A stretch of 64,000 bases of DNA, from the NCBI RefSeq assembly GCF_009914755.1, contig NC_060927.1, one strand, 5' to 3'. Below the pieces are notes generated by a model. It had not been told where the DNA came from and did not search any database. It saw only the letters and a list, made by a program, of their open reading frames with translations. This stretch comes from the human T2T-CHM13v2.0 reference genome, Homo sapiens. Below, one piece after another: positions 42,580-47,148 of this stretch (within the stretch, counting starts at the first letter, position 1; every line of letters begins with the position of its first letter). A program made the translations under genes and the position numbers.

Positions 42580-42748
42580 TATACTATTAATTAAGCACAG
42601 GAAGCAATGCTTACTGTGATTTATCTTTTCCTAAAGATGCATTACAGAAGATATTCAAATATAATATGTCACTTAATGGAAGTAGTTGTTTCAACTCCAA
42701 ATTATAAAATATCCATGTTAGTTGTTTTTATGTCTCTATTCTAATTTA
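42580..42748 (+). repeat. Left copy of ~170-bp direct repeat flanking L1-D
   Basis: Aligns to 46962-47148 with 8 substitutions and 2 indels. Confidence 0.95.
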
Positions 42749-45700
42749 TACTTATACTTTAAGTTCTAGGGTACATGTGCACAATGTGCAGGTTTGTTAC
42801 ACATGTATACATGCACCATGTGGGTGTGCTGCACCCATTAACTCGTCATTTACATTAGGTATATCTCATAATGCTATCCCTCCTCCTCCCCCCACCCCAT
42901 GACAGGCCCCAATGTGTGATGTTCCCCTTCCCGTGTCCAAGTGTTCTCATTATTCAATTCCCACCTATGAGTGAGAACATGCAGTGTTTGGTTTTTTGTC
43001 CTTGCGCTAGTTTGCTGAGAATGATGGTTTCCAGCTTCATTCATGTCCCTACAAAGGACATGAACTCATCCTTTTTATGGCTGCATAGTATTCCATTTAT
43101 GGCTGCATAGTATTCCATGGTGTATATGTGCCACATTTTCTTAATCCAGTCTATCATTGTTGGACATTTGGGTTGGTTCCAAGTCTTTGCTATTGTGAAT
43201 AGTGCTGCAATAAACATACGTGTCCATGTGTCTTTATAGCAGCATGATTTATAATCCTTTGGGTATATACCCAGTAATGGGATGGCTGGGTAAAATGGTA
43301 TTTCTAGTTCTAGATCCTTGAGGAATTGCCACACTGTCTTCCACAATGGTTGAACTAGTTTACAGTCCCACCAACAGTGTAAAAGTGTTCCTATTTCTCC
43401 ACATCCTCTCCAGCACCTGTTGTTTCCTGACTTTTTAATGATCGCCTTTCTAACTGGTGTGAGATGGTATCTCATTTTGGTTTTGATTTGCATTTCTCTG
43501 ATGGCCAGTGATGATGAGCATTTTTTCATGTGTCTGTTGGCTGCATAAATGTCTTCTTTTGAGAAGTGTCTATTCATATCCTTTGCCCACTTTGTAATGG
43601 GGTTGTTTTATTCTTGCAAATTTGAGTTCTTTGTAGATTCTGGATATTAGCCCTTTGACACATGAGTAGATTGCAAAAATTTTCTCCCATTCTGTAGGTT
43701 GCCTGTTCACTCTGATGGTAGTTTCTTTTGCTGTACAGAAGCTCTTTAGTGTAATTAGATCCCATTTGTCAATTTTGGCTTTTGTTGCCATTGCTTTTGG
43801 TGTTTCAGACATGAAGTCCTTGCCCATGCCTATGTCCTGAATGGTATTGCCTAGGTTTTCTTCTAGGGTTTTTATGGCTTTAGGTCTAACATGTAAGTCT
43901 TTAATCCATCTTGAATTAATTTTTGTATAAGGTGTAAGGAAGGTATCCAGTTTCAGCTTTCTACATATGGCAAGCCAGTTTTCCCAGCACCGTTTATTAA
44001 ATACGGAATCCTTTCCCCATTTCTTGTTTTTGTCAGGTTTGTCAAAGATCAGATGGTTGTAGATGTGTGGTATTATTTCTGAGAGCTCTATTCTGTTCCA
44101 TTGGTCTATATCTCTCTTTTGGTACCAATACCAGGCTGTTTTGGTTACTGTAGCCTTGTAGTATAGTTTGAAGTCAGGTAGCGTGATGCCTCCAGCTTTG
44201 TTCTTTTGGCTTAGGATTGTCTTGGCAATGTGGGCTCTTTTTTGGTTCCATATGAACTTTAAAGTAGTTTTTTCCAATTCTGTGAAGAAAGTCATTGGTA
44301 GCTTGATGGGGATGGCATTGAATCTATGAATTACCTTGGGCAGTATGGCCATTTTCATAATATTGATTCTTCCTATCCATGAGCATGGAATGTTCTTCCA
44401 TTTGTTTGTATCCTCTTTTATTTCGTTGAGCAGTGGTTTATAGTTCTCCTTGAAGAGGTCCTTCACATCCCTTGTAAGTTGGATTCCTAGGTATTTTATT
44501 CTCTTTGATGCAATTGTGAATGGGAGTTCACTCATGATTTGGTTCTCTGTTTGTCTGTTGTTGGTGTATAAGAAGGCTTGGGATTTTTGCACATTGATTT
44601 TGTATCCTGAGAACTTGCTGAAGTTGCCTATCAGCTTAAGGAGATTTTGGGCTGAGACGATGGGGTTTTCTAAATATACAATCATGTCACCTGCAAACAT
44701 GGACAATTTGACTTCCTCTTTTCCTAATTGATTACCCTTTATTTCTTTCTCCTGCCTAATTGCCCTGGCCAGAACTTCCAACACTATGTTGAATAGGAGT
44801 GGTGAGAGAGGGCATCTCTGTCTTCTGCCCGTTTTCAAAGGGAATGCTTCCAGTTTTTGCCCATTCAGTGTGATATTGGCTGTGGGTTTGTCATAGATAG
44901 CTCTTATTATTTTGAGGTACGTCCCATCAATACCTAATTTATTGAGTGTTTGTAGCATGAAGGGCTGTTGAATTTTGTCAAAGGCCTTTTCTGCATCTAT
45001 TGAGATAATCATGTGGTTTTTGTCTTTGGTTCTGTTTATATGCTGGATTCCATTTATTGATTTGCGTATGTTGAACCAGCCTTGCATCCCAGGGATGAAG
45101 CCCACTTGATCATGGTGGATAAGCTTTTTGATGTGCCACTGGATTCGGTTTGCTAGTATTTTATTGAGGATTTTTGCATCAATGTTCATCAAGGATATTG
45201 GTCTAAAATTCTCTTTTTTGGTTGTGTCTCTGCCCGGCTTTGGTATCAGGATGATGCTGGCCTCATAAAATGAGTTAGGGAGGATTCCCTCTTTTTCTAT
45301 TGATTGGAATAGTTTCAGAAGGAATGGTACCAGTTCCTCCTTGTACCTCTGGTAGAATTTGGCTGTGAATCCATCTGGTCCTGGACTCTTTTTGGTTGGT
45401 AAGCTATTGATTATTGCCACAATTTCAGCTCCTGTTATTGGTCTATTCAGCGATTCAACTTCTTCCTGGTTTAGTCTTGGGAGAGTGTATGTGTTGAGGA
45501 ATTTATCAATTTCTTCTAGATTTTCTAGTTTATTTGTGTAGAGGTGTTTATATATTCTCTGATGGTAGTTTGTATTTCTGTGGGATCGGTGGTGATATCC
45601 CCTTTATCATTTTTTATTGCATCTATTTGATTCTTCTCTCTTTTTTTCTTTATTAGTCTTGCTAGCGGTCTATCAATATTGTTGATCTTTTCAAAAAACC

Positions 45701-46959
45701 AGCTCCTGGATTCATTGATTTTTTGAAGGGTTTTTTGTTTCTCTATATCTGTCTCCTTCAGTTCTGCTCTGATCTTAGTTACTTCTTGCCTTCTGCTAGC
45801 TTTTGAATGTGTTTGCTCTTGCTTCTCTAGTTCTTTTAATTGTGATGTTAGGGTGTCAATTTTAGATCTTTCCTGCTTTCTCTTGTGGGCATTTAGTGCT
45901 GTAAATTTCCCTCTACACACTGTTTTAAATATGTCCCAGAGATTCTGGTATGTTGTGTCTTTGTTCTCATTGGTTTCAAAGAACATCTTTATTTCTGCCT
46001 TCATTTCGTTATGCACCCAGTAGTCATTCAGGAGCAGGTTGTTCAGTTTCCATGTAGTTGAATGGTTTTGAGTGAGTTTCTTAATCCTGAGTTGTAGTTT
46101 GATTGCACTGTGATCTGAGAGACAGTTTGTTATAATTTCTGTTCTTTTACATTTGCTGAGGAGTGCTTTACTTCCAACTATGTGGTCAATTTTGGAATAA
46201 GTGTGATGTGATGCTGAGAAGAATGTATATTCTGTTGATTTGGGGTGGAGAGTTCTGTAGATGTCTATTAGGTCCACTTGGTGCAGAGCTGAGTTCAACT
46301 CCTGGATATCCTTGTTAACTTTGTGTCTCGTTGATCTGTCTAATGTTGACAGTGGGGGGTTAAAGTCTCCCATTATTATTGTCTGGGAGTCTAAGTCTCT
46401 TTGTAGGTCTCTAAGGACTTGCTTTATGAATCTGGGTGCTCCTGTATTGGGTGCATATATATTTAGGATAGTTCGGTCTTCTTGTTGAATTGATACCTTT
46501 ACCATTATGTAATGACCTTCTTTGTCTCTTTTGATCTTTGTTGGTTTAAAGTCTGTTTTATCAGAGACTAGGATGCAACCCCTGTTTTTTTTGTTTTCCA
46601 TTTGCTTGGTAGATCTTCCTCCATCCCTTTATTTTGAGCCTATGTTTGTCTCTGCACATGAAATGGGTCTCCTGAATATGGCACACTGATGGATCTTGAC
46701 TCTTTATCCAATTTGCCAGTCTGTGTCTTTTAATTGGAGCATTTAGCCCATTTACATTTAAGGTTAATATTGTTATGCGTGAATTTGATCCTGTCATTGT
46801 GATGTTAGCTGGTTATTTTGCTCATTAGTTGATGCAGTTTCTTCCTAGCATCAATGGTCTTTACAATTTTGCATGTTTTTGCAGTGGCTGGTACTGGTTG
46901 TTCCTTTCCATGTTTAGTGCTTCCTTCAGGAGCTCTTGTAGGGCAGGCCTGGTGGTGAC
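42749..46959 (-). mobile_element. 5'-truncated LINE-1, L1PA5/6-like 3' end, from end of ORF1 through ORF2 (L1-D)
   Basis: 3'UTR aagttctagggtac...catgacaggcccc; ORF1 tail (stop 46861-46863); ORF2 start MTGSNSRITILTLNVNG at 46797; no poly(A). Confidence 0.95.
42949..46797 (-). pseudogene. Frameshifted full-length L1 ORF2 (EN, RT, C-terminus)
   Basis: Split across ORFs 46561-46797, 45525-46601, 43570-45420 and 43041-43577; RT motif mutated (FAGD); 22-bp duplication near the 3' end. Confidence 0.88.
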
Positions 46960-46961
46960 TT

Positions 46962-47148
46962 TATACTATTAATTAAGCACAGGAAGGAATGCTTACTGTG
47001 ATTTATGCTTACTGTGATTTATCTTTTCCTAAAGTTGCATTACAGAAGATATTCAAATACAATATATCATTTAATAGAAGTAGTTGTTTCAACTCCAAAT
47101 TATAACATATCCATGTTAGTTGTTTTTATATCTCTATTCTCTAATTTA
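46962..47148 (+). repeat. Right copy of ~170-bp direct repeat flanking L1-D
   Basis: Has an extra gcttactgtgatttat (16 bp) and ct relative to 42580-42748. Confidence 0.95.

What the first reader, a model, noticed from the sequence alone, without database searches (positions are those of the whole stretch)
42580..47148. L1 flanked by a ~170-bp duplication ('mega-TSD') and lacking a poly(A) tail
Seen: 42580-42748 recurs at 46962-47148, immediately either side of L1-D (8 substitutions in 169 bp, plus 16-bp and 2-bp insertions in the right copy). The L1 3' end abuts the left copy with essentially no T-tract (ctaatttatacttatactttaag). The 5' junction shows possible tgac microhomology (ttgacttgctctatact vs gtgactttatact). 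Established: L1 TSDs are normally about 7-20 bp and much longer ones are uncommon. Inference: widely staggered second-strand cleavage or a repair-mediated insertion. The two copies also date the insertion and could allow precise excision by recombination.
Basis: partly seen in the sequence, partly recalled or inferred. Interest (0 to 1): 0.7.

Follow-up and report, generated by a model that had tools for sequence, protein, structure and literature searches.

The report
Tailless L1 with 170-bp target duplication
A dead L1 retrotransposon in a PPM1L intron lacks its poly(A) tail and sits between two copies of the same 170 bases, likely duplicated when it inserted; the oddity is already known from cell-culture experiments and here is likely preserved as an old germline fossil.

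Summary
42580-42748 recurs at 46962-47148 (8 substitutions in 169 bp, plus 16- and 2-bp insertions), directly flanking a 5'-truncated, frameshifted, minus-strand L1 (42752-46959) with no tail. A genome search finds only these two copies. The L1's own divergence (2.3%) predicts 7.8 differences between the copies and 8 are seen, so duplication and insertion are coeval within a factor of about two. The class is known: Servant et al. (PMC5223499) recovered large-TSD, tailless L1 inserts, one with a 275-bp TSD at ATTT/a, and already proposed excision between long TSDs. The junctions therefore have two readings: TGAC microhomology plus two small indels, or target ends briefly joined to each other before L1 capture. 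A single event is favoured (about 0.8). Primate orthologues and SV sets could not be tested. Efficient excision today is doubtful (longest identical run 30 bp). This is a good natural example of a known rare class.

The parts
42580..42748 (+). Left copy of the duplicated unit (3'-side of the L1); 26% GC, no CpG, outside NCBI's repeat mask; its end carries the EN-like site ATTT/A (42744-42748)
42570..42575 (+). TGACTT, matching 46956-46961 across a 4-bp gap; start of the duplication in the microhomology reading
   Evidence: chance of such a gapped match about 0.2-0.4%
42745..42752 (+). 8-mer TTTATACT spanning the 3' junction; includes 3 unassigned bases (42749-51) and overlaps a 6-bp tandem repeat (42747-42758)
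42752..46959 (-). Primate L1, 4.2 kb, 5'-truncated about 160 bp upstream of the ORF2 start codon, 3' UTR complete to its last bases, no poly(A) tail; ORF2 broken into four frames
   Evidence: subfamily L1PA4/5-like is recalled, not tested
43074..43117 (.). Perfect 22-bp tandem duplication inside the C-terminal part of ORF2
46956..46961 (+). 5' junction: last four L1 bases TGAC, then TT that is not L1
46960..46967 (+). Second copy of the 8-mer TTTATACT, directly abutting the L1 5' end
46962..47148 (+). Right copy of the duplicated unit (5'-side of the L1)
46989..47020 (.). 16-bp perfect tandem duplication inside the right copy, likely arisen after the insertion

Best explanation
The L1 and its two flanking copies were likely made in one germline insertion event, in which the second DNA end lay about 175 bases from the first nick instead of about 15, so that the stretch between was duplicated. 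Inferred steps: a nick at ATTT/A (42747/8) freed a 3' end ending in TTT. This end primed reverse transcription at the very start of the A-rich 3' end of the L1 RNA, so no tail was copied. The cDNA stopped after 4.2 kb and joined a distant target end, either a far second nick or a ready-made end from replication or repair, through the 4-base TGAC microhomology at 42570-73. Gap filling duplicated the interval. A 4-bp loss beside the 5' junction and a 6-bp repeat at the 3' junction arose during joining or later. Shown: the structure, uniqueness, matching divergence and dead ORF2. Inferred: every mechanistic step. The element is likely a neutral intronic fossil.
For: The copies abut both L1 ends within 2-3 bases. 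Only two copies exist in the genome. L1 private non-CpG divergence is 37 of 1608 sites (2.3%, against 26 of 29 fetched paralogues; 3 dropped for short overlap), predicting 7.8 substitutions, and 8 are seen. The gapped TGACTT match has about 0.2-0.4% chance. Small indels are common in this copy: 8 in 3239 bp against two other window L1s, among them two 4-bp deletions and a 6-bp insertion. Servant et al. recovered the same anatomy in culture: clone CM.3 has a 275-bp TSD, no poly(A) and site ATTT/a. By my count of their tables 1, 3 and 4, 13 of 47 inserts with TSD >100 bp were tailless against 0 of 16 others (Fisher p=0.027).
Against: It needs two small indels each within a few bases of a junction (roughly 2-3% each if they arose later at the rate). 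It leaves unexplained that the unit starts with the same hexamer as the L1 3' end (background 0.0005-0.0009 per position) and that an exact 8-mer flanks the L1. ATTT/A is one mismatch from the TTTT/A consensus. The date interval (1.0-4.7% per copy) cannot exclude a duplication somewhat older or younger than the L1. No empty allele was seen.
Confidence: 0.55

Rival explanations
1. One event, but with a templated junction. A staggered break left two ~170-nt 3' overhangs whose tips annealed through a shared TA, as in tandem-duplication repair. Each tip was extended a few bases on the other (left end +TACT, right end +TT) and they came apart. The left end, now complementary to the 3' end of the L1 RNA, captured it without the tail. 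The result is a short 8-bp repeat nested in a long duplication.
For: The site rebuilt from the 8-bp repeat equals the head-to-tail junction of the unit over all 33 bases compared, with a 2-bp TA microhomology. It accounts for all five unassigned junction bases with no indel (joint chance about 0.3%). None of 29 paralogues has TAC before the body. Breaks with 3' overhangs give tandem duplications, with junction microhomology when polymerase theta acts (PMC8355091, passages; overhangs of about 50 bp there). L1 inserts with locally templated extra sequence occur (PMC11702581, passages).
Against: It makes the gapped TGACTT match a coincidence of the same size (0.2-0.4%). Full annealing of the 7-base complement would give one TATACT, not the two seen, so a slip is still needed. 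The implied nick TACT/A is a poor EN site. I found no described case of this exact structure.
Confidence: 0.27
2. Two events: a ~170-bp tandem duplication came first, and the L1 later landed on its junction with an ordinary 8-bp TSD.
For: The same nested 8-mer. Short TSDs are enriched in 5'-truncated L1s (PMC2912911, passages). The date interval allows a duplication up to twice as old as the L1.
Against: An independent insertion within about 5 bases of a young duplication junction is very improbable a priori (inference). The point estimates of age coincide. It has a poor EN site, and both the missing tail and TGACTT stay unexplained.
Confidence: 0.08
3. An ordinary L1 insertion was rearranged afterwards: a break in its 5' part was joined to an empty allele or sister chromatid ~175 bases upstream of the insertion point, copying the unit behind the L1.
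For: It gives the same structure, and TGAC would be the microhomology of the join. The age fits if it happened soon after insertion.
Against: It needs a second rare event at the same spot and does not explain the missing tail, which co-occurs with large TSDs in fresh inserts.
Confidence: 0.07

Closest known systems
Large-TSD L1 insertions from cell culture (Servant et al., PMC5223499; Gilbert 2002/2005 and Symer 2002 as cited there)
   Same: 5'-truncated L1, TSD >100 bp, tailless subset, near-consensus EN site; clone CM.3 (275 bp, no tail, ATTT/a) is almost the same anatomy; under 10% of HeLa inserts, most inserts in NER-deficient cells; excision between long TSDs already proposed.
   Different: This one is a natural, old, reference-genome copy with diverged repeats; its pre-insertion allele was not seen; it has a nested 8-bp repeat. 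The junction sequences of the culture clones (supplements) were not examined.
Canonical TPRT insertion
   Same: L1 3' UTR intact to its end, T-rich target end, 5' truncation.
   Different: Duplication about ten times the usual 7-20 bp; no poly(A) tail.
Non-classical / endonuclease-independent L1 insertions (Sen et al. 2007, PMC1920257)
   Same: No tail; possible repair involvement.
   Different: Those are defined by 3' truncation beyond 25 bp, no TSD of any length and a divergent EN site; this L1 is not 3'-truncated and has a duplication.
L1-mediated tandem duplications in tumours (Rodriguez-Martin et al., PMC7058536)
   Same: An L1 bridges the junction of a direct duplication, by cDNA joining a second 3' end.
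   Different: Those are megabase-scale and somatic; this is 170 bp and germline.

Membership tests
Large-TSD L1 insertion | Direct repeat >100 bp directly flanking both L1 ends | tested here: met
Large-TSD L1 insertion | Repeat is local unique target sequence, not an interspersed repeat | tested here: met
   (2 matches in the genome); outside the NCBI repeat mask given with the finding
Large-TSD L1 insertion | Duplication as old as the insertion | tested here: met
   8 seen, 7.8 expected; wide interval
Large-TSD L1 insertion | Single copy in the pre-insertion allele | not testable with these tools
   no primate genomes held (no relatives)
Canonical TPRT L1 insertion | Poly(A) tail | tested here: not met
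Canonical TPRT L1 insertion | TSD of 7-20 bp | tested here: inconclusive
   outer repeat 169-179 bp; nested 8-bp repeat could be read as one
Canonical TPRT L1 insertion | EN site near TTTT/A | tested here: inconclusive
   ATTT/AG, one mismatch; ATTT/A sites are listed for real inserts
Non-classical (ENi) L1 insertion, Sen 2007 | 3' truncation beyond 25 bp | tested here: not met
   body aligns with paralogues to its last bases
Non-classical (ENi) L1 insertion, Sen 2007 | No TSD of any length | tested here: not met
Non-classical (ENi) L1 insertion, Sen 2007 | No poly(A) tail | tested here: met
L1 3' transduction | Source copy elsewhere and a second poly(A) tract | tested here: not met
L1PA4/L1PA5 subfamily | Diagnostic positions against Dfam/Repbase models | not testable with these tools
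   no repeat library; assignment rests on recall and on 2.3% private divergence

The most novel reading that the evidence does not exclude
The nested 8-bp repeat is a fossil of a repair intermediate: the two ends of a staggered break were first joined as a nascent tandem duplication and then captured an L1 RNA without its tail. Tailless L1s with >100-bp duplications would be an overlooked class of fixed germline insertions, missed because surveys cap TSDs at 25-30 bp, and their junctions would show how the second strand is resolved in vivo.
Probability: 0.25. Interest if true: 0.55.

Novelty: new member of a known kind. Interest (0 to 1): 0.3.

Why it matters
Extremely long TSDs were at one time put down to peculiarities of HeLa cells, and the genomic surveys read here only counted TSDs of 5-30 bp (PMC2912911) or 5-25 bp (PMC12016303). 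A fixed, old copy with the same tailless, large-TSD signature suggests that the pathway works in the germline and that its products can persist. It also offers a simple genome-wide test: scan reference L1s for long flanking repeats and ask whether they are tailless and carry nested junction repeats. The locus itself has no evidence of function: ORF2 is broken, it lies in an intron, and no functional element is annotated on it.

Tried and rejected
3' transduction: rejected, as there is no source copy elsewhere and no second tail. Two independent copies of an interspersed repeat: rejected. Assembly artefact: rejected, because the copies differ by 8 substitutions and 2-3 indels. Recent gene conversion between the copies: no sign, since differences are spread and the longest identical run is 30 bp. 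Two untemplated bases (TT) at the 5' junction: possible (14.6% of truncated L1s have extra bases) but it leaves both coincidences unexplained. Control for long duplications: 0 of 11 paralogues with both ends in view had one (largest flanking repeat 19 bp); clear short TSDs were found in only 2-4 of these 11 by my simple scan, and 18 of 29 loci had no usable second end, so it gives no useful frequency. A planned 120-locus survey was not obtained, so the frequency among fixed L1s is open. Literature: nine searches returned results (less none empty; ten in all) and none listed a description of this locus or a survey of fixed L1s with TSD >100 bp; the library lacks most subscription papers, and Gilbert 2005 and two other papers were not held. 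PMC13192797 had no TSD passage. A nucleosome- or Okazaki-fragment-sized spacing (~170 bp) was considered; one locus cannot test it, and culture TSDs range from about 200 to 6800 bp.

Full report
Observation. The window shows a minus-strand L1 between two copies of one unit. The 16-bp insertion is a perfect tandem repeat. No other similar stretch exists in the window. A search of the whole T2T genome returned only these two places (that search skips very common words). The unit is 26% GC with no CpG.

The element. ORF2 is split over four frames, and a 22-bp tandem repeat at 43074-43117 is one of the breaks. The 5' end stops about 160 bases upstream of the ORF2 start codon, so the promoter and nearly all of ORF1 are missing. 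Twenty-nine paralogues fix the 5' end at 46959: none continues with TT, and 27 have A next. Twenty-nine others fix the 3' end at 42752. It is 93-94% identical to two other L1s in the window, which are 97% identical to each other. L1PA4/5 is my recalled guess; no repeat library was available.

Tail. Three bases (TAC) separate the left copy from the L1 body, so no tail is present. The longest T run in the 25 bases before the body is 3, against 4 or more in 27 of 29 paralogues; by T count the locus is unremarkable because the flank is AT-rich. Short tails alone are therefore uncommon but not unique among copies of this age.

Age. Over 45300-46959 the L1 differs from the majority of 26 paralogues (of 29 fetched; 3 dropped for short overlap) at 37 of 1608 non-CpG sites, 2.3%. 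Outside the stretch used to pick the paralogues it is 2.5%, with a paralogue mean of 2.9%. Two copies of 169 bases of that age should differ at 7.8 sites; 8 are seen (per copy 2.4%, 95% CI 1.0-4.7%). Duplication and insertion are coeval within a factor of about two. With recalled primate rates this is very roughly 15-25 million years, so monkeys should be empty and great apes filled (prediction, untested).

Junctions. Five bases fit neither the L1 nor the ungapped unit: TAC at 42749-51 and TT at 46960-61. Reading A extends the duplication to 42570. TGAC is then a 4-base microhomology, TT belongs to the target, four bases were lost beside the junction, and a 6-bp repeat arose at the 3' junction. 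The gapped TGACTT match has a chance of about 0.2-0.4%, and 4- and 6-bp indels do occur in this copy (8 indels in 3239 bp). Reading C notes that TTTATACT lies at both L1 ends (42745-52, 46960-67). The site rebuilt from it equals the head-to-tail junction of the unit, with a 2-base TA microhomology, over all 33 bases compared. This explains all five bases with no indel (joint chance about 0.3%). Each reading leaves one coincidence of a few per thousand unexplained, so the sequence alone cannot decide. Both are single events. An independent L1 hitting an older duplication junction, or a later rearrangement, is possible but needs a second rare event at the same few bases (inference).

Mechanism. 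I commit to a TPRT-started insertion at ATTT/A, primed at the first A residues of the RNA 3' end and resolved at a distant second end through TGAC (0.55). The templated-junction version follows (0.27), then an older duplication (0.08) and later rearrangement (0.07). Shown: structure, uniqueness, matching divergence. Inferred: all steps.

What is known. Servant et al. (PMC5223499; passages and sections 17 part 1 and 18 read; supplements not read) report TSDs over 100 bp in under 10% of HeLa inserts and in most inserts from NER-deficient cells. They note tailless inserts and propose both a distant second nick and loss by recombination between long TSDs. Clone CM.3 has a 275-bp TSD, no tail and ATTT/a. 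By my count of their tables 1, 3 and 4, 13 of 47 large-TSD inserts are tailless against 0 of 16 others (p=0.027). Suzuki et al. (PMC2666801, passages) saw one 1228-bp TSD in 25 zebrafish-LINE inserts in chicken cells. Kojima (PMC2912911, passages) surveyed only 5-30-bp TSDs and called longer ones in vivo unstudied; PMC12016303 (passages) used 5-25 bp. The non-classical insertions of Sen et al. (PMC1920257, passages) require 3' truncation and no TSD, which this locus fails. Tumour L1-mediated duplications (PMC7058536, passages), templated junction sequence (PMC11702581, passages) and duplications at breaks with 3' overhangs (PMC8355091, passages) supply precedent for the rival steps. PMC4859970 (passages) lists ATTT/AA among EN sites of disease insertions. 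Ten searches (listings only, apart from the papers named) showed no description of this locus or survey of fixed large-TSD L1s, but the library lacks most subscription papers and Gilbert 2005 was not held.

Controls. None of 11 paralogues with both ends in view had a flanking duplication longer than 19 bp (18 of 29 were unusable). Two other window L1s show flanking repeats of about 19 and 10 bp, and a third shows none that is clear. This is too few for a frequency.

Excision. The longest uninterrupted identity between the copies is 30 bp, well below the 150-250 bp that I recall mammalian homologous recombination needs, so precise excision is possible but likely rare now. No SV data could be searched.

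Verdict. The feature is real and unusual, and most likely a fixed germline member of the known large-TSD, tailless class. The nested 8-bp repeat is the only part that may be new, and primate orthologues would settle it. Interest 0.3.

Noticed in passing
window 6490-9855: A younger minus-strand L1 with a ~19-bp TSD has about 70 extra bases between its own A-rich end and a second T-tract (6502-6580), broken by further T runs: it looks like a short 3' transduction, possibly serial. A genome search with 6505-6600 found only itself.
   Followed up: partly
window 34556-38019: Minus-strand L1 with a ~10-bp TSD and an internal direct duplication of about 65 bp near its 5' end (blocks 34579-37829 and 37830-38001 overlap on the reference element).
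   Followed up: partly
window 4930-5734: A 0.8-kb 5'-truncated L1 with no clear TSD in a simple scan.
   Followed up: no
window 42580-47148: Several perfect microduplications cluster in this locus: 22 bp (43074-43117), 16 bp (46989-47020), 6 bp (42747-42758) and a 2-bp insertion (47138-39).
   Followed up: partly
window 47201-47509: A minus-strand Alu about 55 bp right of the right copy, with an ordinary tail and a TSD of about 10 bp: a canonical insertion next to the odd one.
   Followed up: no
window 4930-46959: Four young L1s in 42 kb all lie on the minus strand, antisense to PPM1L, as expected for intronic L1s (recalled bias).
   Followed up: no
L036:1450-1540: A paralogue on contig C1 also has almost no tail (longest T run 3 before the body) and no clear TSD in my scan.
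   Followed up: no
L040:1501-3636: A paralogue with a 5' inversion (twin-priming type structure).
   Followed up: no
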